Below, in pieces: positions 33,322 through 51,659 of a DNA stretch of 64,000 nt (position 1 is its first letter; each line of letters starts with the position of its first letter). The position numbers and the translations under genes are program-made. The stretch spans positions 1 to 64,000 of the IMG/VR virus record IMGVR_UViG_3300020577_008743, one strand, 5' to 3'. This stretch comes from a virus (taxonomy: Duplodnaviria > Caudoviricetes). The notes beneath the pieces were generated by a model. It made no database searches and was not told the origin of the DNA. It saw only the letters and a program-made list of their open reading frames with translations.

Positions 33322-33408
33322 CGGGGTGTAGGTCCGTAATCAGGTAGCGGTCTCGGCTTGGATCCGAGTGGGAAACCCTTGCAGGTTCAAATCCTGCCTC
33401 CCCGACCA
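33322..33408 (+). tRNA. tRNA-Pro(UGG), atypical (variable-arm hairpin)
   Basis: CGGGG start, TGG, ACCA. Confidence 0.8.
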
Positions 33409-36661: not shown

Positions 36662-36696
36662 AAATAGGTCATCGTAACTGAATGAAAGGCTTCACC

Positions 36697-37500
36697 ATGG
36701 ACGCCCGGAAATCCGTAGCACTGCACACCCTCGTCGCTGTTCGCCCGACGTTGGAAACAACCCTGAAAACGATCTCAGCCGAAACGGACAACTCCTTCCG
36801 AAAACCCGAAAGCCTGACGGAATGGGAAAAGACCTTCACATCGACGGTCACCTGGCCGGAAGGCTCCGAGGCTCTGAAGGTCGCTCTGGAATCCCAACGT
36901 TCCGGTCACCGTGCGGCGGTCACTTCAACTCAGGATCGAATCGGTTACGAAGCCGCCGAACAGGTCAAGTACTGGGACTTGATGCACAACATCGAGCTGG
37001 GCAACCAGGTCGCGGTTGCTGACGTGGTCCTAAAAGACGGCACAGTCTTGATGACCCGCGTCCCCGCAACGCACTTGCGTCGACTGGATACGTGGCTCAC
37101 CACCTTCCGCAACCGCATCGCGAACTGTCCCACGGTCCCGTCAACTATCAACGTGGAACAGGCCTCCCGCAACGGCAGAATGGTCTACGCCGGACCGGTG
37201 AAAACCATCACCGTGTACGAGGAAACCAAAAGCTGGGTGAAGGTCGCCGAGGCCAATGTACACCAGAAGGAAGCCACCGTCCGCGAAGCCGTCACCAAGA
37301 CGCCAATCGGCATCGAGAAGGAGATCAACTACTACGGCATGCCCACTTCTTCGGAGAAGGCACAGCTGCTGACCCGTCTTGATGAGCTGATCGTGGCAGT
37401 CAAGGAGGCGATCACTGAATCAAACACGGTGACCATCGAACCCGTTTCGGTCTCCAAAACTCTCATGGCCTATGCCTTCACCGGCAAGGTCAATGCCTGA
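36697..37500 (+). CDS. conserved elongated coiled-coil/beta-hairpin protein (DUF7873-like by recall, unverified)
   Basis: ADVV..G.VL...VPAT.L..L....; K..L..R.D.L..AVK.A..E.N pattern. Confidence 0.65.
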   Translation: MDARKSVALHTLVAVRPTLETTLKTISAETDNSFRKPESLTEWEKTFTSTVTWPEGSEALKVALESQRSGHRAAVTSTQDRIGYEAAEQVKYWDLMHNIELGNQVAVADVVLKDGTVLMTRVPATHLRRLDTWLTTFRNRIANCPTVPSTINVEQASRNGRMVYAGPVKTITVYEETKSWVKVAEANVHQKEATVREAVTKTPIGIEKEINYYGMPTSSEKAQLLTRLDELIVAVKEAITESNTVTIEPVSVSKTLMAYAFTGKVNA

Positions 37501-37780: not shown

Positions 37781-37949
37781 TACACCCAAAAAACCTCTAA
37801 TGAGCGTGGTCAAAAGCACAACCAGGTATACTAATAGCGTATATTGCTACCAATGATACCAGGTCCCTATGGGGTCGGATAATGCCCTGTGGGGACCGCT
37901 TAATGCAGATTTGGATTCAATAAGTCTCCATTAAGCGGTATAAGAATAT

Positions 37950-38515
37950 GAAGGTAAAGTAACTGCTGTACTAAAAAAAAGCAAAGTGGGTGTAACATCC
38001 ACACGTTTCTTTCAGTCCTAACAACTTGTGTCGTTCGCCTTTGGGCTCACTGGCCCCCTAACGGGTGCCCCACAAGTTGCCAGCTCTGATGAGCTGGGCC
38101 TCAGGATCCAACGACTGGGTCCCCGGGGACTGGATGTCTTCTTGCACACCCGGTGCATTTTGGATGCTGAGCAAGATGGGCAACGCAATTGCCCGCCGGC
38201 TCAGTGAGATCTGCAGACATCGTCACCTGGTGTTGTTCTGGATCCCGAAGGTCGAGTTTACCTACATTAGCAACAGAAGTAGAAACAAAATGAATTCAAG
38301 AATTGAGGCTCTGGGAACAACATTGCGCCGCCTGAATGTCGGAACAAGGTCTTCCCCCCTGTGAGTTCGGCATTCCGCAATTTGGCGTCCTCCCGCCGAG
38401 TTGCATACCAATGCCCAGAGCCTCAACCTTACAAACGAAGAGCGTAAGCTCATGAATACGCCATCAACGAAGCTGACCACTTCGTTTCAAGCCCGGTCGT
38501 TCTTCGTTTGTTTTA
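37950..38515 (+). ncRNA. putative large structured RNA
   Basis: follows CGGTATAAG at 37936; 13-bp and 14-bp helices plus nested hairpins; no convincing ORF. Confidence 0.55.
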
Positions 38516-38523
38516 GCCACAAT

Positions 38524-38661
38524 TAGGACCGCAGAATTACGATTATCTATAATAGCTGACATGCTGCAGGTTCGAGTCCTGCCTGGCCCACCATCTATGG
38601 GTCCAGTGGCGAAATGGTATACGCATCAGCCCTAAACCAGTCGTATTCATAATTTGTCCTA
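38524..38661 (+). ncRNA. Y RNA-like 1 (YrlA type, tRNA-like domain)
   Basis: TAGGAC-CG..TTTGTCCTA stem, TTATC, T arm-acceptor-D arm order. Confidence 0.85.
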
Positions 38662-38670
38662 TTCTTCAAC

Positions 38671-38729
38671 GGGGGCGAAGTAGAAACTTATGAAGTTCGC
38701 AGCTTCTATTTTTCGATACGCTTCCACCA
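38671..38729 (+). ncRNA. 59-nt alanine-acceptor minihelix-like RNA
   Basis: GGGGGCG/CGCTTCC-A-CCA with G3.U70. Confidence 0.6.
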
Positions 38730-38734
38730 ACAAA

Positions 38735-39061
38735 ATGTCTCACACAACCGAGTTGTACTTCGAGTCACATATCACTATTGAGCCCGTGTTCGATGAAAGA
38801 CTGGAACAGTTCAAGGGAATATGTGCTTCGGAGGGTTTCAAGGCAGCAGAGCTGCTGATGAAAAAACGTTCGGGTGATACCGCTGAACGTTCGCAGTACG
38901 ATACCTTTTGCACTAGTAGAGATCTTATTTATGATAAAATCCAGACTAGAACATTAACCTTGGTCGAAAAGTTGCAGTCTTCCGGGTTTGACGTCTGGAG
39001 ATATAAGATTGAGAATACCTTGTTGGATGTTAGACTTAAATTAGAGTCTAAAATCCAGTAG
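38735..39061 (+). CDS. hypothetical protein inside the Y RNA cluster
   Basis: YFESHITI..WRYKIE. Confidence 0.65.
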   Translation: MSHTTELYFESHITIEPVFDERLEQFKGICASEGFKAAELLMKKRSGDTAERSQYDTFCTSRDLIYDKIQTRTLTLVEKLQSSGFDVWRYKIENTLLDVRLKLESKIQ

Positions 39062-39162
39062 GGCAAAAGATTCGATTGTTGTTTATATTACTAAATATAT
39101 TGAGTCTGTAAAAGCTGTTTGCAGTAGAATCAAGAAACATTCGTAGTACTAGAAGCATCCTC

Positions 39163-39224
39163 AGGGCCGCAGGAAGATCGGTTATCCCCTACACTGATGA
39201 CTCCGATTTCCGTATTTTCGCCCT
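39163..39224 (+). ncRNA. Y RNA-like 2 (minimal)
   Basis: AGGGC-CG..TTCGCCCT, GGAAGATCGG/CCGATTTCC, TTATC. Confidence 0.75.
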
Positions 39225-39234
39225 TCCCCCAATT

Positions 39235-39295
39235 AGAGCCGATTTGAGCTGGGTTATCCTTCTAAGATACCTCCCCATCTCAGTTCCCTTGCTCT
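39235..39295 (+). ncRNA. Y RNA-like 3 (minimal)
   Basis: AGAGC-CG..TTGCTCT, TGAG.TGGG/CCCA.CTCA, TTATC. Confidence 0.75.
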
Positions 39296-39324
39296 CCCTC
39301 TTGTAGTTGTGGTACAATCAACTT

Positions 39325-39453
39325 TTGAGCCGCTGTTAAATTCCGTTATCTTCCTTAGAAATAGGAAGTTGCGGGTTCGAATCCCGTCGCCAGCTTATAT
39401 CTGGCGTAGTTTAATTGGTAAAACTAAAACCGGAACTACACTAATTCGCTCAA
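39325..39453 (+). ncRNA. Y RNA-like 4 (tRNA-like domain)
   Basis: TTGAGC-CG..TTCGCTCAA, TTATC, GGTTCGAATCC, CGCCAG/CTGGCG, TAGTTTAATTGGTAAAAC; TGTGGTACAAT just upstream. Confidence 0.85.
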
Positions 39454-39460
39454 CCCCATT

Positions 39461-39530
39461 TAGGGCCGTCAGGTTATGTCGGTTATCTCACTTTTAGCGA
39501 AAACCCCGATTAACCATAAATTTTGCCCTA
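39461..39530 (+). ncRNA. Y RNA-like 5 (minimal)
   Basis: TAGGGC-CG..TTTGCCCTA, GGTTA..TCGG/CCGA.TAACC, TTATC. Confidence 0.75.
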
Positions 39531-39549
39531 CTGATTTAAATTTCAATTT

Positions 39550-39609
39550 GGAGCCGCTTAAAACTGGGTTATCAATTGGTGATTACTCCCCAGTCTAACT
39601 TTTCGCTCC
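39550..39609 (+). ncRNA. Y RNA-like 6 (minimal)
   Basis: GGAGC-CG..TTCGCTCC, ACTGGG/CCCAGT, TTATC. Confidence 0.75.
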
Positions 39610-39663
39610 TCCCGTTTAAACAAAGATTGCTGGGTTCAAACCTCTTTCTTTTAGCTGTTCAAA

Positions 39664-41609
39664 ATGACCTCTCACAGAAAAATTACCCCGTCTGAACGAA
39701 ATATTCTCCACCTCATAAATCGTAGCATAGCGGATTCAGAAGGCTGGTGTAATGTAAGTTCTGCCGTGTTTCCCCTTGTCAAAGACTTTGACTCTGAACT
39801 AGTTGAAATAAACGGCAACAAAATTCGGTTGACATCGGTAGGTAAGATACTTGCAGATTGGACTTGATTATGACCGACTCAGAACTAATACAAAATGCGG
39901 CTAAAGCCATCGGACTCATTGCAACCCCGATATTTACGGAAAATTTCGAGGGCCAGGAGTGGTGGGCGTATGAAGAAGGCAAGCCTACACAAACGCTAAG
40001 GCCGTGGAATCCTCTTGTGGATGATGGGGATGCCCTACGGTTGCTCGTAGAACTTGGAGACTATGTCCAGGAGGGGAGCTGGCCTTATATGTGGGGAGAG
40101 GCCCAAGAACAGGCTAAAGAAAACGATGGGCAAATAGACTGGTGTAAGGTTGTTCGTAGAACCATAGTAAAAGCTGCCGCCAATAAATGGTTAAGGATGG
40201 ATAGATCAAATGAAAAAGCAACCTCTAAATCCGCAGATTGAAAAACTTCTCGAGTTGTTAGACAAGGCCACGGAAGAACAACGAGGCAGCGAGAGGGCCC
40301 TGTACCTGTTGCTGAAACTCAATGTCGCTGTTCTTCCTGAACTGGATTACAGTTTTCACAAGGCTTTCAGACAGTATGATGTAACTGAGTCCGGTGAAAT
40401 GGATATGGCAATCTGGCATCTTTTAGGGGTTTCAAAGACGTTCTGGGAGGTGTTCGGGAAAATTACCGGAACAGATGATGAGGAGCCCGGCGAAGATGGC
40501 TAGAATAGAACTTATCTTCCCCGAGGAAGGATACCGTGAAGTAATCGGTGAAAGAGCACTCACTTTGGAAGAGGCTTTTGAAGCAGGAGTATTTTGGGCG
40601 ACCAGGCAGTTTCAAAGTAAATTCGGCATGTACTACCGCAAAGATGAGTGGGGAGAAAGAGACTACGTAGATGTAAAGTCCATTTTCCCCGATCATGTCA
40701 GGGACAAGATATGACCTGTAGGTTTTGCAACAAACCTTCCGTCAGTTACTACGATATATCTTTGACTGGTATTGGCAATTTCATTGAATACTGCAAGAAT
40801 CACCAGGAAGAGGCTCGTCAAAAGCGCGATGAGCATGATAGATATTGGGAAGAAATCCGAAAGGAAGTTATGAGGGAAAATGGCTAAAGTAACCTGGACA
40901 ATAGAGGATCACATATGTAGTTCTTGCGGGGGTCGAATAGTAAGATCAGCCAAGGGAACTGGTCCCACCCCTGGAGGAAATCCCGTATACAAGTGTTCTT
41001 TATGTGGTAAAGTTACAACAGAAATGGGAGGTCATTCCCTGTGTTGGTGCGGATATTCACAGAAATCCAATAACAACTCCCTTCCATATAAATGCGTTCC
41101 GTATTCGATATTAGAGAAATACCCTGACGGCTTAAGTTACTTTAAGTTTTGTGGATGTGATCCTAGGCGGGGAGGGGAAGTGGGAGTAATGTTAGAGGAG
41201 GATTGGAATGAACTTAGAAAAAAAGACATTGCCGTACAAGTCATACCACCAACAGCTGATTGAGGCTAACACCAAAACAGAGGCTCTTCGAGAACTAATC
41301 TCAACATTGGGTGAATTGTTGGTAAAAGAACAGGAAGCCCGTATTTTATACGAAGATGCTGTATGGAAAATGGTCAACGATGGTTGGTTAGTCCACGGTC
41401 CGGAAGGCATGAGTGAAGCTCAACAAGCTGTCTATGATGTTTGTAAAAATCATCCGGAGCTAAAAACTCGAATAAAACAAAAGCAAGAAGAACAGAGAAA
41501 TTACGAAGAAGCTACGAACAGAAATGTTCGGCTAGAATCCACTCCGGGAACATACGTACCAAATCCCAAACCCCTACCAGCCTGGCGTCGTTTGTTTCGC
41601 TGGCTGTAA
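39664..41609 (+). other. run of small hypothetical genes (39664-39867, 39858-40241, 40210-40503, ~40496-40714, ~40711-40887, 40880-41263, 41208-41609)
   Basis: overlapping + strand ORFs. Confidence 0.55.
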
Positions 41610-41615
41610 CCAAAT

Positions 41616-41743
41616 TTGAGCCGTTAGAATTTGATTATCCAATCGCAGGACGTGGTCAAAGGTTCGAATCCTTTCTCCCCCGCCATCAATGGGGGAGTAG
41701 CTCAGAGGTAGAGCACGTAAACTCGAATTCTGTTTTTGCTCAA
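41616..41743 (+). ncRNA. Y RNA-like 7 (tRNA-like domain)
   Basis: TTGAGC-CG..TTTGCTCAA, TTATC, AAAGGTTCGAATCCTTT, CTCCCCC/GGGGGAG, TAGCTCAGAGGTAGAGC. Confidence 0.88.
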
Positions 41744-41750
41744 TTCCAAT

Positions 41751-41881
41751 TTGGACCGAAGTTATTCAGTTATCGCTCCCAATGCGCCAGATCGGTTAAG
41801 TCCAGCACCCGTTGATTCATGGGTCGTAGTGTATAGAAGCACGGCGCATATTTTCAATTGATTAACGTTCACTTTGTCCAA
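41751..41881 (+). ncRNA. Y RNA-like 8 (degenerate tRNA-like domain)
   Basis: TTGGAC-CGAA..CTTTGTCCAA, TTATC, TGCGCC/GGCGCA enclosing T-, acceptor- and D-like hairpins. Confidence 0.8.
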
Positions 41882-41921
41882 CTCTGTTTTTACCCGTAGT
41901 AAACCAACCTGGAGAACCGAA

Positions 41922-43598
41922 ATGTCTGCAAAGAATCTTGTGAATCACCTCGTTCCGGGCCGCTATGCTTCCATTCCTGCGAAGCGTACTCCCGCCGCCC
42001 CGAAGGTGACCAAATCCACCAACCCGAACGCTGGCCTGCCGCCAGTGTCCACTTCTGCGTATCAGAAAACCGCCGCCGGCCAAGTTCAAAACTCGTCCGG
42101 AGCCTATGTTGGCAAATTGGATGTGTGGGCTCATCTGAATCGGTTTCTCATTCTCGGCACTTCCGGCTCGTCCTACTACGCCTCAGAGCGCAAGATGACC
42201 GTTGACATGGCCAAGGCCGTGGAAGCTGCAGTGAAATACAACGGCATTTCCACCGTCGATCTGATCGTGGAAATCAGCCAAGCCGGTGCCGCTCCAAAGA
42301 ATGATCCGGCCTTGCTGGCTCTGGCCATCTGCGTCGCCAAGGGGGATGATTCCACCAAGGCCTACGCAATGAACCAGCTGCCGAAGGTAGCCAGAATTTC
42401 GACTCACCTGTTCGATTTTCTGACCTACGTTCAGGCCATGAGAGGCTGGGGAAGAACCCTGAAAGAAGGTGTTGCCAACTGGTATACTTCCAAGGATCTG
42501 AACCCCTTAGCCATGCAGATGACGAAGTATCGTCAAAGAAATGGCTGGACTCACCGCGACGTTCTGAGACTGGCTCACCCGAAGCCCACCTCCGAGTCCA
42601 TGAACAATCTGTTCAAGTGGGCCATCAAAGGTCCAGAAGCACTGGAAAGAGGTGCGGAAATCCCTGAACAAGTCATCGGCTTCGAGAAGGCAAAGACCGC
42701 AGGTTCCGGTACTCTGGTCAAACTGATTCAGGATTACCGCCTGACCTGGGAGATGATTCCGACTGAGATGCTGAATGATGCCAACGTGTTTCACGCTCTA
42801 GTCATGAGCATGAATCTCGAGGCCATGATTCGCAATCTGCCGCGCATCACCAATCTCAACTTGTTGCTTACTCGGGAAGTCAGGGACCGTATTCTGAGTC
42901 TTCTGAGAAACGCAGAGGAGATCAAGGCCAAGCGGTACCATCCCCTCAAGGCTCTGGTGGCTAGAAAGACCTACGCCAGTGGCCGAGGTCTGAAGGGTAG
43001 CATGACCTGGGTACCCAACGCCGAGGTTGCCAGGGCCCTGGAAGACACGTTCTATCTGGGGTTCGATGCAGTGGAACCCACAGGCAAAAGACTTCTGTTG
43101 GGTATCGACGTCTCCGGCTCCATGACCATGGGCCAAGTAGGGGGCATGCCCCTTGCTCCGTACGAAGCTGTTGCCGCAATGGCAATGGTTACGGCACGTT
43201 GCGAACCTCTGGCAGAAATCCTCGGCTTTTCGTACAACCTGCAAGACCTTGGTATCAAGAACACCGATACTCTGGCCCAGGTTCTGAAGAAAGTGCAATT
43301 GGCTCGATTTGGAAGTACGAATCCCGGAGCACTAATTCAGTACGCAGCCAAGAAAGGCAATGTGGAAGGCCTGGTCGTCTACACCGACAACGAAGTGAAC
43401 CAAGGTTCCAGCGTTGCGGCAGAGATGAAGAAATATCGCACCAAGGCTTCTGTGGCCAGAGCAACGATGACTGTAGTCGGAATGACGGTCAACAATTTCA
43501 CCCTAGCCGACCCCAAAGATCCAGACATGCTCGACATTGTTGGATTCGATACCGCTGCTCCAGCAGTGATGTCCGAGTTCATCAAGGGCACTTTCTGA
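41922..43598 (+). CDS. rsr: Ro60/Rsr TROVE-vWA RNA-binding protein
   Basis: RFLILG, KYRQRNGWTHRDVLRLAHP, AMIRNL, IDVSGSM, YTDNE, MLDIVGFD. Confidence 0.95.
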   Translation: MSAKNLVNHLVPGRYASIPAKRTPAAPKVTKSTNPNAGLPPVSTSAYQKTAAGQVQNSSGAYVGKLDVWAHLNRFLILGTSGSSYYASERKMTVDMAKAVEAAVKYNGISTVDLIVEISQAGAAPKNDPALLALAICVAKGDDSTKAYAMNQLPKVARISTHLFDFLTYVQAMRGWGRTLKEGVANWYTSKDLNPLAMQMTKYRQRNGWTHRDVLRLAHPKPTSESMNNLFKWAIKGPEALERGAEIPEQVIGFEKAKTAGSGTLVKLIQDYRLTWEMIPTEMLNDANVFHALVMSMNLEAMIRNLPRITNLNLLLTREVRDRILSLLRNAEEIKAKRYHPLKALVARKTYASGRGLKGSMTWVPNAEVARALEDTFYLGFDAVEPTGKRLLLGIDVSGSMTMGQVGGMPLAPYEAVAAMAMVTARCEPLAEILGFSYNLQDLGIKNTDTLAQVLKKVQLARFGSTNPGALIQYAAKKGNVEGLVVYTDNEVNQGSSVAAEMKKYRTKASVARATMTVVGMTVNNFTLADPKDPDMLDIVGFDTAAPAVMSEFIKGTF

Positions 43599-43881
43599 TT
43601 TACAGTTTCACGTACTAGCCCAAAAACCGACTGGGTTGGTATTTTAGGGTGCAGAACATCGTACCCTTTTTTAGCCTTTACTTGGTATAAGGGAAATAAC
43701 GAGACGAATTATTTAAGGAGCAGTTATGGACGTGACGGGAAAGGATTCAAAATACTTACGTGGTGTTAAAGACACCCTATCGTGGGCACTTACCGGGAGC
43801 GGAACTAAGTTGCATCGCAGCGTCAGGGAAATTTCCGAGCTTATGCATAAGGCCGACGATGCAGAGAAGGCTGCCCTCACA

Positions 43882-45309: not shown

Positions 45310-45918
45310 ATGAGTCAGCCACCAGTTTACCGCAACACTCTCCCCGATCATCTGTTTCAGATGTACCCGCTGTTGAAACGTACCCTCACGCTGATTCAGC
45401 TGGGACACGCCGGTCAGTTGTACAACGGGCATCCTTACTGGCATCATCCGGTGCGGGTTGCCATGAGGCTGGAATCACTGTGGGTACAGAACGAGGGGTC
45501 TTTGCTGTATTCCGCTCTTCTTCACGACTTGATCGAAGATACTTCCCTGGAAGTCGATGATTTGAAGGAGTTCGGATATTCCGACACCGTGGTAAAAACG
45601 GTCAAAGCCCTGACTCATGATGCATTCGATACCCGGACGTACATGGAGTATGTCCAGGACATCACCATTCATCCGGAGTCTTTCGTTCGCCACGGAGCCA
45701 GCCTTGTCAAGTTGGCAGACCTGACGGAGAACGTGAACGGAGCCAGGTTTCTGCCCATGGAGAAAAGGGGAAGAATGGAACGTTACGGAAAGGCAATATC
45801 GGTCATTCAAGACTCTCTCATTCTTCACAGCCCCTGGGTAGCCCACTCCGTCCACGTCGGTGAGTTGGACGCAGCCAAGCTTGAGATGTGGTTCGGCCAT
45901 CCCCCAGCGTTTCTGTAA
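45310..45918 (+). CDS. HD-domain hydrolase ((p)ppGpp hydrolase/Mesh1-like)
   Basis: HAGQ..PYWHHP, ALLHDLIEDT, VKLAD..N. Confidence 0.8.
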   Translation: MSQPPVYRNTLPDHLFQMYPLLKRTLTLIQLGHAGQLYNGHPYWHHPVRVAMRLESLWVQNEGSLLYSALLHDLIEDTSLEVDDLKEFGYSDTVVKTVKALTHDAFDTRTYMEYVQDITIHPESFVRHGASLVKLADLTENVNGARFLPMEKRGRMERYGKAISVIQDSLILHSPWVAHSVHVGELDAAKLEMWFGHPPAFL

Positions 45919-48186: not shown

Positions 48187-48696
48187 ATGAATGAAACAAT
48201 CATAGGAGACAGTACAGGAGATTTTCACATCCTTAAGGGGGGGTATATGACCCCTGCAAGCTCCGGGGATTACTCTCGTCTGACAGGAATGCAGCACCCC
48301 TGGAAAGACAGACATAGAGACATCTCTTGGCCCCTGCCCCCCGTTCAGTCCAAAGAACTTCCCCCGATGCAGCCTGAAACTCCGAAGGCTAAAAAAGAGG
48401 TCCCAGCTTCGGAATTTCTAGAGGAGGCTTCTAGAGTAATGAAGGCTAGAGCTGCTCAACGGGATGCCCAGAACGGCGAACGTAGCATGGCCAAAACCGT
48501 GGAAATGTTCAACGCCTATAAGGGAATAAGTCTGTCGGAATCCGACGGCTGGGTGTTCATGGTCCTACTCAAATTGGTGAGAGGATCTCAGGGCCAGTTT
48601 CACATGGACGATTACGTTGATGGGTCGGCGTACTTCAGCCTGCTGGGGGAAGCCGAATCAAAAGGGAGGGAACCCCGTGAAGATTCAAGTACTTAG
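48187..48696 (+). CDS. conserved phage protein (DUF6378-like)
   Basis: ERSM, MVLLKLVR, DDYVDG.AY. Confidence 0.6.
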   Translation: MNETIIGDSTGDFHILKGGYMTPASSGDYSRLTGMQHPWKDRHRDISWPLPPVQSKELPPMQPETPKAKKEVPASEFLEEASRVMKARAAQRDAQNGERSMAKTVEMFNAYKGISLSESDGWVFMVLLKLVRGSQGQFHMDDYVDGSAYFSLLGEAESKGREPREDSST

Positions 48697-49408
48697 TGAT
48701 CTACACTACGAATTCAACGAAGGTTACTATTTAAAAAAAGAGCACTTCGTTGGAGACGTAATAGTCCTGGCTGGGGACATCTGTAGCCTACCGGATCACA
48801 GATTTGCAGATCTTCCGGATGTACCTGTGATTCATGTGCTGGGTAATCATGAACACTATGGCAAGAACTTTGTCGATACCAAGCGTAAGACGGAAGATGC
48901 TTGGCTGCGGCTAGGCAAAGAGAACGTCAGCGTGCTGAACAATCAGGTTCGAGTGGAAGACGGAGTCAGATTCCTCTGCACCACTCTTTGGACTGATTTT
49001 CTCACCGAAGACAAAATGTATCAGATGGCTGAGTGTAAAAGGGGAATGAACGATTTCTACCAAATTCGTAACTTCACCACCGCCACCTGGATCTACGAAA
49101 ATGACGTGGCCGTGACGTGGCTGAAGCAGGAACTGGCCAAAGAGCACGAAGGAAAGACGGTGGTAGTTACTCACCATGCCCCTTCTTTCAAAAGCAATGG
49201 GGAATGGTACAGAAACAGTAGTATCCGTGCCGGGTTTTGTACTGACATGGAGTATCTAATGAAGGAGGAGAAGATTGACCTCTGGATTCACGGTCACACT
49301 CACGAACCGGCCGATTACATGGTTGGATCAACAAGAGTGGTGTGTAATCCTCTGGGGTATCGAGCTGAGAATCCCAGATTTCAAGAATCGCTTGTAGTAG
49401 AAATTTGA
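48677..49408 (+). CDS. calcineurin-like metallophosphoesterase
   Basis: SDLH, LAGDI, GNHE, THHAP, HGHTH. Confidence 0.88.
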   Translation: MKIQVLSDLHYEFNEGYYLKKEHFVGDVIVLAGDICSLPDHRFADLPDVPVIHVLGNHEHYGKNFVDTKRKTEDAWLRLGKENVSVLNNQVRVEDGVRFLCTTLWTDFLTEDKMYQMAECKRGMNDFYQIRNFTTATWIYENDVAVTWLKQELAKEHEGKTVVVTHHAPSFKSNGEWYRNSSIRAGFCTDMEYLMKEEKIDLWIHGHTHEPADYMVGSTRVVCNPLGYRAENPRFQESLVVEI

Positions 49409-50429: not shown

Positions 50430-51659
50430 ATGAGCCAACACGAAGTACTAATATACAAGGCAAAGCTGCTGCCTCATCCCAACGCGGATATGATAGAGCT
50501 TTGTCAGATCGGAGACTACCTCTCTATTGTCAAGAAGGGTGATTTCAAGGAAGATCAGCCGGTAGCCTATATTCCTGAACAATCAATTGTTCCAGAACCT
50601 CTTTTGGAAGAAATGGGGTTGAAGAACAAGCTCTCTGGTGCAGCCCGAAACCGGGTCAAAGCCATCAAGTTGCGTGGTACTCTATCCCAGGGCTTGGTGT
50701 ACGTCAAACCGGGAGGTTACGCCGAAGAGGACGTAGGTCGAAACGTAGCTGAAGAGCTGGGGATCATCAAGTGGTCTCCGACTCTACCGGTCCACCTACG
50801 AGGAAAAGCCAAAGGCATGGCTTACGATATTACTGTCAACTACGATATAGAGAATATCAAAAAATGGAACCGACACATTGAAGAAGGGGACTTGGTAGTA
50901 ATCACCGAGAAAATTCATGGAACAAACGTCCAGATTGGTTATGCTCCACGTTGTGGGAGCAGTGGCGGAGGGGTGGGCATTAGTTATGACGGACAGTCTT
51001 CCTCCGGAGGGCCCGATGGAGGTGGGTCAGGCGTTGACGTGGTCTCATCCGAGACCAGGAATATTCTGTTTGAGAACTCATTCTGGGTTAGTTCAAAAGG
51101 TTTGGGTGGTAGGGGAATCATTCTCGATATGGAAGATTCCTCCAACGTTTACGCCAATATTGCTCGTTCCATCGAATATAACCTTCTTGAGAAAATCCGC
51201 AATTTTTACACCGGAAAAAACCTCAGACACATCGAGTATCTCTCAGGCCTTCAATGCCCCCCGATAGTCCTGATAGGAGAAATATTCGGGCCAGGTATTC
51301 AAACAGGTTTTCACTACGGTCAAACCAAGCCTGAATTCAGGCTATTCGACATTGCTGTAGGCCCTCGTAATAACAGGATGTACCTGAGCTGGGACGATTA
51401 CATGCAAGCAGCCTTTATCATGGGCATTCCGACAGTCCCTACTTTGTATATCGGTCCGTTCTCAAAAGAGATTCTGGCACAGTACACCTCTGGCAAGGAA
51501 AAGGTTACCAACCATTCCCACCACATGAGGGAAGGTTGCGTAGTTCGGTTGATCAATGAGAAGTCTTCAGGAAACCTGGGCAGGGTTATTCTGAAGAGCA
51601 TATCGGAAGAGTATCTAACTAGAAAAGGTACCGAGGAAGAATTGACGGAGTACCAGTGA
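50430..51659 (+). CDS. ATP-dependent RNA ligase (DRB0094/Rnl2-like)
   Basis: HPNAD N-terminal domain, EKIHGTN, GEIFG, FRLFDI, REGCVV, ILKSIS. Confidence 0.88.
   Translation: MSQHEVLIYKAKLLPHPNADMIELCQIGDYLSIVKKGDFKEDQPVAYIPEQSIVPEPLLEEMGLKNKLSGAARNRVKAIKLRGTLSQGLVYVKPGGYAEEDVGRNVAEELGIIKWSPTLPVHLRGKAKGMAYDITVNYDIENIKKWNRHIEEGDLVVITEKIHGTNVQIGYAPRCGSSGGGVGISYDGQSSSGGPDGGGSGVDVVSSETRNILFENSFWVSSKGLGGRGIILDMEDSSNVYANIARSIEYNLLEKIRNFYTGKNLRHIEYLSGLQCPPIVLIGEIFGPGIQTGFHYGQTKPEFRLFDIAVGPRNNRMYLSWDDYMQAAFIMGIPTVPTLYIGPFSKEILAQYTSGKEKVTNHSHHMREGCVVRLINEKSSGNLGRVILKSISEEYLTRKGTEEELTEYQ

What the first reader, a model, noticed from the sequence alone, without database searches (positions are those of the whole stretch)
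38524..43598. Phage Ro60 gene served by an array of eight diversified Y RNAs
Seen: eight elements (38524, 39163, 39235, 39325, 39461, 39550, 41616, 41751) share one architecture. Each has a terminal helix ending G(G/A)(A/G)C-CG on the 5' side, opposite a pyrimidine run plus the complement. An upper helix follows, then invariant TTATC 11-14 nt after the CCG. Helix sequences differ between copies but keep pairing (covariation). The last copy ends 40 nt before the Ro60 start. Known: Ro60/Rsr binds a bulged-C helix of Y RNAs, and bacterial loci typically carry one or two Y RNAs. Inference: one Ro60 ring is loaded with interchangeable RNA adaptors, each with a different effector loop. This would be a modular RNP toolkit for RNA decay/repair, or a set of decoys against host tRNA-targeting defences. 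Best candidate for the undescribed system.
Basis: partly seen in the sequence, partly recalled or inferred. Interest (0 to 1): 0.92.

Follow-up and report, generated by a model that had tools for sequence, protein, structure and literature searches.

The report
Phage Ro60 gene with eight Y RNAs
An uncultured tailed phage from sludge and river water carries, just upstream of its Ro60 gene, eight small RNA genes that share one Ro60-docking stem but have different tops. This is an enlarged version of the known Ro60/Y-RNA particle, and the same kind of array turns out to be common beside Ro60 genes in other phages and in bacteria.

Summary
Exactly eight elements share a 5-6 bp terminal helix, a bulged C followed by G opposite a pyrimidine run, an 8-11 bp upper helix and then UUAUC. 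All eight lie on the + strand between 38521 and 41886, and the last ends about 40 nt before a Ro60 gene (41922-43598). Pairing is kept through compensatory changes, both among the eight copies and across 48 related RNAs from other phages.

Four copies (E1, E4, E7, E8) are YrlA-type, with a tRNA-like T arm, closed acceptor stem and D arm; in E8 this part is degenerate. Four copies (E2, E3, E5, E6) are minimal hairpins of about 60-70 nt. I read them as Y RNAs of the phage Ro60.

The array is not unique. The same 5' motif clusters within 2 kb upstream of Ro60 in 51 of 80 other viral loci, and several of these carry 7-9 copies. It occurs in 68 of 80 bacterial or archaeal Ro60 loci, with up to 9 copies. 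Some apical loops are conserved across phages whose Ro60 is only 45-47% identical.

Two Y RNA classes, polycistronic precursors and the "different partners" idea are already published (Chen 2014). Arrays of this size and the UUAUC hairpin class were not found in the papers searched. This scan has noted similar arrays on other DNA. Expression and Ro60 binding remain untested.

The parts
38521..38666 (+). E1, a long Y RNA of YrlA type. Terminal helix 38525-38529 / 38656-38660. Canonical T arm, closed acceptor-like stem whose loop starts ACCA, and D arm.
   Evidence: Fold. Rfam YrlA full-length but sub-threshold match, 20.7 bits. R2 match 38.2 bits, E 6e-7. Apical part resembles L004:4698.
39159..39230 (+). 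E2, a short hairpin Y RNA (helix ends 39163-39224).
   Evidence: Fold. R1 70.4 bits and R2 55.9 bits.
39231..39301 (+). E3, a short hairpin Y RNA (helix ends 39235-39295). Its loop, UUAUCCUUCUAAGAUAC, is nearly the same as in L005:5174.
39325..39457 (+). E4, a long Y RNA of YrlA type, with an extra V hairpin, T arm, closed acceptor stem and D arm. It starts about 8 nt after the promoter-like GGTACAAT at 39311-39318.
   Evidence: Fold. Rfam YrlA 33.5 bits on the tRNA-like part. R2 18.4 bits with filters off. Motif.
39458..39535 (+). E5, a short hairpin Y RNA (helix ends 39462-39529).
39546..39615 (+). E6, a short hairpin Y RNA (helix ends 39550-39609). Its 20-nt apical loop is identical in L004:4579 and L005:4663.
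41613..41748 (+). E7, a long Y RNA of YrlA type, with a connector stem, T arm, 7-bp closed acceptor stem whose loop starts GCCA, and D arm.
   Evidence: Fold. Rfam YrlA 36.4 bits, E 1.6e-5. R2 31.7 bits. Best apical matches are L008:5168 and L004:5311.
41751..41886 (+). E8, a long Y RNA with the same three-way layout, but its T and D arms have lost the tRNA signature sequences. The 5' strand reads GGACCGAAG.
   Evidence: Fold. R2 14.3 bits, E 0.11, full-length, with filters off. No Rfam match.
41922..43598 (+). Ro60/Rsr gene, 558 aa: TROVE ring plus vWA domain with the MIDAS motif DVSGS at residue 396.
   Evidence: Pfam. D. radiodurans Rsr 2nvo E 9e-98, Xenopus Ro60 1yvp E 4e-91, human RO60 E 1e-89. 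Residue numbers.
43646..43673 (+). Terminator-like hairpin plus T run that closes the Ro60 unit. It is followed at 43684 by the next promoter-like GGTATAAG.
39311..39318 (+). Promoter-like motif GGTACAAT. The family GGTA[TC]AA[GT] has 21 copies, all on the + strand. Another copy at 37937-37944 lies upstream of E1.
   Evidence: 21 found, 5.65 expected, 0 of 100 shuffles reach it. Sequence context.

Best explanation
The eight elements are genes for Y RNAs, the small RNA partners of the phage's own Ro60 ring protein.

Expression (inferred). They are transcribed with Ro60 as part of one or two + strand units, from promoter-like sites at 37937 and 39311 to the terminator-like hairpin at 43646. Host RNases would then cut them out of the precursor, as shown for bacterial Y RNAs.

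Docking (inferred from architecture and genetic linkage). Each RNA binds the outer face of Ro60 through the shared module: a 5-6 bp helix, a bulged C followed by G, a pyrimidine-rich opposite strand and an upper helix.

Variable parts (shown in sequence). The apical parts differ. Four are tRNA-shaped, with a T arm, a closed acceptor stem and a D arm, and with the Ro60 helix where the anticodon arm would be. Four are short hairpins in which UUAUC can pair with a conserved GAUAA-like stretch.

Function (inferred, about even odds on the detail). The different tops give one Ro60 several particle types that recruit or gate different partners. Candidates are host PNPase or other exoribonucleases, and tRNA-recognising enzymes. 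The likely purpose is RNA surveillance, decay or repair during infection.
For: 1. The shared architecture is real and maintained. Eight hits lie on one strand, all give the same fold, and 92% of stem cells pair against 70% when shuffled.
2. Across 48 distinct relatives, 91% of cells pair against 66% shuffled. There are 162 double-sided changes against 48.7, and the covariation score is 0.63 against 0.20 shuffled and at most 0.12 when partners are slid.
3. The RNA module is genetically tied to Ro60. In 80 other viral Ro60 loci the 5' motif occurs 203 times on the Ro60 strand and 20 times on the other. Of the 203, 171 lie in the 2 kb just upstream of Ro60. In 80 bacterial or archaeal Ro60 loci the counts are 222 against 9.
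4. None of 17 neighbouring ORFs of the window is shared with the other viral loci near Ro60, apart from one unrelated hit. Only Ro60 and the RNAs travel together.
5. E1, E4 and E7 match Rfam YrlA on the tRNA-like part.
6. The protein is a canonical Ro60. His219 aligns with Xenopus His187, whose mutation abolishes Y RNA binding (PMC11277228).
7. Some apical loops are conserved between phages whose Ro60 is 45-47% identical. The E6 loop is identical in L004 and L005, and E7, E1 and E3 also have matches.
8. Published precedent: bacterial Y RNAs lie within 2 kb of rsr on the same strand, come in a tRNA-like class and a long-hairpin class, and are cut from polycistronic precursors (PMC4201824). A phage Ro60 binds two phage Y-like RNAs and host PNPase (PMC12135203).
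Against: - There is no expression or binding data for this phage.
- No individual promoters or terminators were found for most copies, and sigma-70-type scans are not enriched.
- None of the eight reaches the Rfam YrlA gathering score (best 36.4 bits against 69), and no metazoan Y_RNA or sbRNA model matches at E up to 10.
- The published GNCGAA motif is present in full only in E8. The others read RCCG followed by C, U or A.
- E8 scores weakly (E 0.11) and its tRNA-like arms are degenerate.
- The partners of the apical modules are unknown.
Confidence: 0.8

Rival explanations
1. The elements are Ro60-binding sites within the operon mRNA, acting in cis. They would serve for autoregulation, protection from exonucleases or processing punctuation, rather than as stable trans-acting RNAs.
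For: The copies are embedded in one or two long + strand units, and ORFs lie between the three groups of copies. Most copies have no promoter or terminator of their own.
Against: E2-E3 and E4-E6 are packed head to tail with spacers of 0-30 nt and no ORF between them, like tRNA clusters. The tRNA-like modules and the loops conserved across phages are not needed for a plain binding site. Bacterial Y RNAs of the same layout are excised from precursors and accumulate as stable RNAs (PMC4201824).
Confidence: 0.07
2. The elements are tRNA-derived decoys or tRNA-operon relics that act independently of Ro60, for example by soaking up host tRNA-targeting nucleases or tRNA-modifying enzymes.
For: Four copies carry T, acceptor and D arms. 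The phage encodes 17 tRNAs. An RNA ligase and a phosphoesterase lie 5-8 kb downstream.
Against: The tRNA-like modules have no anticodon arm, which is the target of anticodon nucleases. Four copies have no tRNA feature at all, yet share the same terminal module. The module tracks Ro60, not tRNA genes: only 25 of 82 comparison loci have any tRNA gene within the flanks, and the 8-copy arrays of L004, L005 and L008 have none.
Confidence: 0.08
3. The pattern is a chance or repeat artefact, or an assembly chimera.
For: None found.
Against: The strand bias, covariation and synteny are far beyond the controls. One 15.6-kb contig spans the whole stretch with no differences, and contigs from three further studies cover it piecewise.
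Confidence: 0.01

Closest known systems
Bacterial Rsr (Ro60) with its Y RNAs: S. Typhimurium YrlA/YrlB, M. smegmatis YrlA/YrlB, D. radiodurans Yrn1/Yrn2 (Chen et al. 2014, PMC4201824; Rfam RF02553)
   Same: The RNAs are encoded next to Ro60 on the same strand. A terminal stem carries the Ro60-binding motif. [quoted passage not shown] Processing from polycistronic precursors is plausible. The published idea is that several Y RNAs let Ro60 engage a wider range of components.
   Different: There are eight RNAs instead of two. The 5' motif reads RRNCCG, with the full CGAA only in E8. An invariant UUAUC follows the upper helix, which that paper does not mention. None of the copies reaches the Rfam YrlA gathering score.
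Thermus phage phiLo Ro60 with Yrl1 and Yrl2 (NAR 2025, PMC12135203)
   Same: A phage-encoded Ro60 with Y-like RNAs just upstream. The RNAs have a stem-bulge-stem design. A complex with host PNPase was shown there.
   Different: The phiLo protein is only distantly related to this one (E 6e-6 over about 110 residues), whereas this Ro60 is close to Rsr and animal Ro60. phiLo has two RNAs, not eight, and no tRNA-like modules are reported for it.
Vertebrate Y RNAs and nematode stem-bulge RNAs (Kowalski & Krude 2015, PMC4726728)
   Same: [quoted passage not shown] Several paralogs share stems and differ in their loops. From my own recall, not checked here: human Y1 reads GGUCCGAAG, seven more bases, then GUUAUC, which has the same spacing as E8.
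   Different: No Rfam Y_RNA or sbRNA match at E up to 10. The 3' tails are C-rich rather than oligo-U. The genes are not separate polymerase III units. Some copies contain tRNA-like modules.

Membership tests
Y RNA (functional class: small RNA partner of Ro60) | Encoded close to a Ro60 ortholog on the same strand (prokaryotic members) | tested here: met
   All eight lie 40 nt to 3.4 kb upstream of the Ro60 gene on the + strand. In relatives the same motif is concentrated in the 2 kb upstream of Ro60.
Y RNA (functional class: small RNA partner of Ro60) | The 5' and 3' ends pair into a stem that contains a conserved helix with a bulged C and an opposite-strand bulge | tested here: met
   Folds. 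Covariation among the eight copies and across 48 relatives.
Y RNA (functional class: small RNA partner of Ro60) | Physically bound and stabilised by Ro60 | not testable with these tools
The only indirect support is conservation of the residue aligned with Xenopus His187 (PMC11277228).
Y RNA (functional class: small RNA partner of Ro60) | Accumulates as a discrete small transcript | not testable with these tools
   No run on record as RNA holds the stretch.
YrlA (Rfam RF02553) | Score at or above the curated gathering threshold of 69 bits | tested here: not met
   E7 36.4 bits, E4 33.5 bits, E1 20.7 bits, and no match for the others. The loci of two cultured actinophages with Ro60 and of eight viral contigs with arrays also gave no YrlA hit at the gathering score, so the threshold is narrow.
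YrlA (Rfam RF02553) | A tRNA-like domain (T arm, closed acceptor-like stem, D arm) inside the Ro60-binding stem | tested here: met
   Met for E1, E4 and E7. E8 keeps the three-way layout but not the T- and D-loop sequences. E2, E3, E5 and E6 lack the domain and are not YrlA.
YrlA (Rfam RF02553) | The GNCGAAN0-1G motif near the 5' end (PMC4201824) | tested here: inconclusive
   The core (G/A)CCG is present in all eight. The CGAA(N)G part is present only in E8, which reads ACCGAAG.
Metazoan Y_RNA / nematode sbRNA | A match to the Rfam covariance models | tested here: not met
   No such family is listed at E up to 10 over 38300-42000.
Metazoan Y_RNA / nematode sbRNA | A bulged-C lower stem plus a UUAUC motif at the start of the loop | tested here: met
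   UUAUC is invariant in all eight, 11-14 nt after CCG. The motif is described for Y and sbRNAs in PMC4726728.
Ro60 / TROVE protein family | A TROVE ring domain plus a C-terminal vWA domain with a MIDAS motif | tested here: met
   Pfam TROVE 2.8e-39 and vWA_Ro60 1.2e-41. Alignment over nearly the full length with Rsr and with Xenopus Ro60. DVSGS at residue 396.

The most novel reading that the evidence does not exclude
Prokaryotes and their phages have a widespread, so far undescribed 'UUAUC-type' Y RNA family that occurs in conserved multi-member sets; here, and in at least two other phage lineages, the set is four hairpin RNAs plus four tRNA-like RNAs. Each member would have its own conserved apical module and therefore its own partner, making Ro60 a multi-specific RNA-handling platform. 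The shared bulged-C helix, spacing and UUAUC would then point to common descent with animal Y and sbRNAs. They would also suggest that UUAUC is an ancient Ro60-linked element rather than a feature specific to eukaryotic DNA replication.
Probability: 0.3. Interest if true: 0.8.

Novelty: new variant of a known kind. Interest (0 to 1): 0.55.

Why it matters
Ro60 and Y RNAs are conserved from bacteria to humans, and Ro60 is a major lupus and Sjogren autoantigen. What the variable Y RNA loops do is still largely open. This locus offers one Ro60 with eight partner RNAs that share the docking stem and differ in modules, some of which are conserved across distant phages. That gives a compact, cloneable system for asking which partner each module recruits. 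It would also show whether phages use Ro60 particles for RNA decay, tRNA or RNA repair, or counter-defence. A Ro60-like protein of phage Bas63 was reported to counter the Ppl defence system (PMC11482910).

The comparison also shows that published searches limited to YrlA undercount prokaryotic Y RNAs. The hairpin class with UUAUC is abundant beside Ro60 in phages, Chloroflexota, Verrucomicrobiota and others.

Tried and rejected
- Nucleotide search of the 5.3-kb stretch against cultured phage genomes found no match.
- The search for sequencing runs listed no RNA holder. Only DNA contigs could be laid. They confirm the sequence but say nothing on expression. The 'joints' reported there are 20-nt T-arm cross-matches to other organisms' tRNAs.
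- Sigma-70 promoter and intrinsic terminator scans were not enriched over shuffles.
R2, run with filters off, could.
- A loose two-helix descriptor gave many false positives and was replaced by the strict 5' motif with a strand control.
- The supplementary tables of Chen 2014, which give per-phage YrlA counts, are not held. The 2020 Annual Review is not held.
- I considered that the short loops mimic the 16S rRNA 3' end, because of the GAU-AC-UCC stretch. I dropped this: most of that stretch is simply the 3' strand of the upper helix plus the partner of UUAUC.
- I first recalled K170/R174 as the Y-RNA-binding residues of Xenopus Ro60. The review I could read assigns loss of Y RNA binding to H187S instead, so only His187 is used as evidence.


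Full report
**What is there.** The window is the first 64 kb of a 97.5-kb IMG/VR virus record, estimated 63% complete. It is a tailed phage. Tail-fibre genes lie on the - strand. A long + strand region holds 17 tRNA genes.

No further copy of this architecture exists in the rest of the record.

Each copy folds the same way:
- a 5-6 bp terminal helix;
- a bulged C followed by G, opposite a U/C-rich run;
- an 8-11 bp upper helix;
- a loop that begins UUAUC.

The ORF that starts 40 nt after the last copy (41922-43598, 558 aa) is a canonical Ro60. Pfam gives TROVE and vWA_Ro60. It aligns over almost its full length with D. radiodurans Rsr (E 9e-98), Xenopus Ro60 (4e-91) and human RO60 (1e-89).

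**Two classes.** E1, E4, E7 and E8 are 126-136 nt between their helix ends. They carry a T arm, a closed acceptor-like stem and a D arm, with the Ro60 helix where the anticodon arm would be. This is the YrlA layout. Rfam YrlA matches the tRNA-like parts of E7 (36.4 bits), E4 (33.5) and E1 (20.7), all below the gathering score of 69. E8 keeps the three-way layout but has lost the T- and D-loop signatures.

E2, E3, E5 and E6 are 60-68 nt between their helix ends and have only the two helices and a loop of about 20 nt. In this loop UUAUC can pair with a conserved GAUAA-like stretch on the 3' side. Because UUAUC never varies, this third helix cannot be tested by covariation.

**More than chance.**
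- Among the eight copies, 96 of 104 stem cells are standard pairs, against 72.4 +/- 3.0 after shuffling (0 of 2000 shuffles reach it). Eleven of 13 pairs show two or more pair types, for example G-C or A-U at the second and third positions of the lower helix.
- A model of the four short copies (R1) found 96 matches in 81 other viral Ro60 loci. All but two were on the Ro60 strand.
- An alignment of 48 distinct matches gives 91% paired cells against 66% shuffled. It has 162 double-sided changes against 48.7. The covariation score is 0.63, against 0.20 shuffled and at most 0.12 when partners are slid. This alignment was fitted to the model, which favours the structure, but the margins are large.
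- A second model built from that alignment (R2), run without filters over 35-48 kb, ranks the eight as its top eight hits. All are full-length, and these matches give the boundaries used in this report.

**Link to Ro60.** IMG/VR holds 521 stretches that encode a relative of this Ro60, and I fetched 80 of them.
- In those loci the strict 5' motif occurs 203 times on the Ro60 strand and 20 times on the other.
- Of the 203, 171 lie in the 2 kb just upstream of Ro60. The density there is 1.7 and 0.8 per kb, against at most 0.06 per kb in the bins more than 3 kb upstream or more than 1 kb downstream of Ro60.
- 51 of 80 loci have at least one copy within that 2 kb.
- None of 17 neighbouring ORFs of the window is found near Ro60 in those loci, apart from one unrelated hit. 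Only Ro60 and the RNAs are co-conserved.
- His219 of the phage protein aligns with Xenopus His187, whose mutation abolishes Y RNA binding according to PMC11277228.

**The array is not unique.**
- Several viral loci have 7-9 copies: L004/L006/L033, L005/L007, L058 and L008. In all, 26 of the 80 have four or more.
- L004 and L005 also consist of four short and four long members.
- Some members are recognisably the same RNA in phages whose Ro60 is 45-47% identical. The 20-nt E6 loop is identical in L004 and L005. E7 matches L008:5168 and L004:5311, E1 matches L004:4698, and E3 matches L005:5174. The local alignment scores are 26-62, against a shuffled 99th percentile of 25. The lower parts of the stems differ between these copies.
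- E2, E5 and E8 have no clear counterpart.
- The family is not phage-specific either. In 80 bacterial and archaeal Ro60 loci the motif occurs 222 times on the Ro60 strand and 9 times on the other, and 68 loci have at least one copy.
- Chloroflexota and Verrucomicrobiota contigs of 0.3-2 Mb carry 4-9 copies.
- 364 cultured phage genomes, mostly actinophages, encode a Ro60 relative. The two records I inspected annotate no Y RNA.

**Expression.** This is inferred only.
- A phage-specific motif GGTA[TC]AA[GT] occurs 21 times, always on the + strand, against 5.65 expected. In two cases it follows a hairpin and T run.
- Copies lie at 37937 (upstream of E1), at 39311 (about 8 nt before E4) and at 43684. 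The last follows the terminator-like hairpin at 43646-43667 that comes after Ro60.
- This fits one or two transcription units that run through the RNAs into Ro60, with the RNAs cut out afterwards.
- Chen et al. showed such polycistronic precursors for M. smegmatis and D. radiodurans Y RNAs (PMC4201824).
- The same DNA is present in sludge, wastewater and river metagenomes from several studies.

**Mechanism.** My best reading is that these are eight Y RNAs of the phage Ro60 (confidence about 0.8). The docking module and its linkage to Ro60 are shown in sequence; binding itself is inferred. That the different tops recruit or gate different partners is inference. It is supported by the conservation of some tops, and by precedent: Yrn1 and YrlA tether Rsr to PNPase, and phiLo Yrl1/Yrl2 bind host PNPase (PMC4201824, PMC12135203).

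The neighbourhood suggests RNA repair or turnover. It holds 17 tRNAs, an HD phosphohydrolase (45310-45918), a metallophosphoesterase (48617-49408) and an RNA ligase (50430-51659). This context is not shared by the other array-bearing phages.

The decoy idea is weak for anticodon nucleases, because the tRNA mimics have no anticodon arm.

**Comparison and novelty.** The following are already published:
- phage Ro60 with Y RNAs;
- the two RNA classes, tRNA-like and long hairpin;
- the idea that extra Y RNAs widen Ro60's range of partners (PMC4201824, PMC12135203).

I did not find the following in five full-text searches:
- sets of about eight;
- the recurrence of individual members across distant phages;
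- the abundance of a hairpin class with the invariant UUAUC.

UUAUC is a motif so far discussed for vertebrate Y RNAs and nematode sbRNAs (PMC4726728). A review states that bacterial Y RNAs are not homologous to the vertebrate clades. The present family looks more animal-like than YrlA does, but no Rfam Y_RNA or sbRNA model matches, so homology is open.

Earlier notes of this scan describe similar Ro60-adjacent RNA arrays on other DNA. I treat those as leads, not support. I rate the finding a new variant of a known kind, of moderate interest.

Noticed in passing
window, 21 sites, e.g. 358, 5591, 37937, 39311, 43684, 49668: The motif GGTA[TC]AA[GT] occurs 21 times, all on the + strand, against 5.65 expected. 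It is often preceded by TGT/TTGT, and twice it directly follows a hairpin plus TTTTTTAGCC. It is probably the phage's early or middle promoter -10 element.
   Followed up: partly
window 45310-45918, 48617-49408, 50430-51659 (+): An HD phosphohydrolase, a metallophosphoesterase and an RNA ligase (Pfam RNA_ligase plus the PHA02142 OB fold) lie 2-8 kb downstream of Ro60. This may be an RNA end-healing and sealing set. It is not shared with the other Ro60 loci.
   Followed up: partly
window 38590-38610 (E1) and 41680-41700 (E7): The 3' strand of the closed acceptor stem is followed by ACCA in E1 and GCCA in E7, and the stems are 7-8 bp long. M. smegmatis YrlA, which has a 7-bp stem, is cut by RNase P and receives CCA (PMC4201824). 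E1 and E7 may therefore be split into two pieces with a tRNA-like CCA end. E4 and E8 lack the CCA.
   Followed up: no
A3 alignment; window E2, E3, E5, E6 loops: In the short class the invariant UUAUC is complementary to a conserved GAUAA / GAUA / GGUGA stretch on the 3' side of the loop. That would make a third, apical helix closing a 4-9 nt loop. Covariation cannot test it, because UUAUC never varies.
   Followed up: partly
L139, L142, L140 (Chloroflexota), L103, L108, L121 (Verrucomicrobiota), L101, L102: Cellular genomes, some on contigs of 1-2 Mb, carry 4-9 elements of the form GGGCCG, a variable stretch, then GGGUUAUC around their Ro60 gene. In the Anaerolineae loci most copies lie downstream of Ro60.
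   Followed up: partly
window 36682-37500 (+): A DUF7873 protein (Pfam E 6e-25) lies upstream of the region. I did not examine this.
   Followed up: no
window 33325-33405 (+): A weak tRNA match (29.3 bits, right at the gathering score) that ARAGORN does not call.
   Followed up: no
L084 6962-7383 (Gordonia phage Sixama): Rfam finds a tmRNA (88 bits) between the Ro60 gene and the tRNA array. The record's feature table does not list it for that stretch.
   Followed up: no
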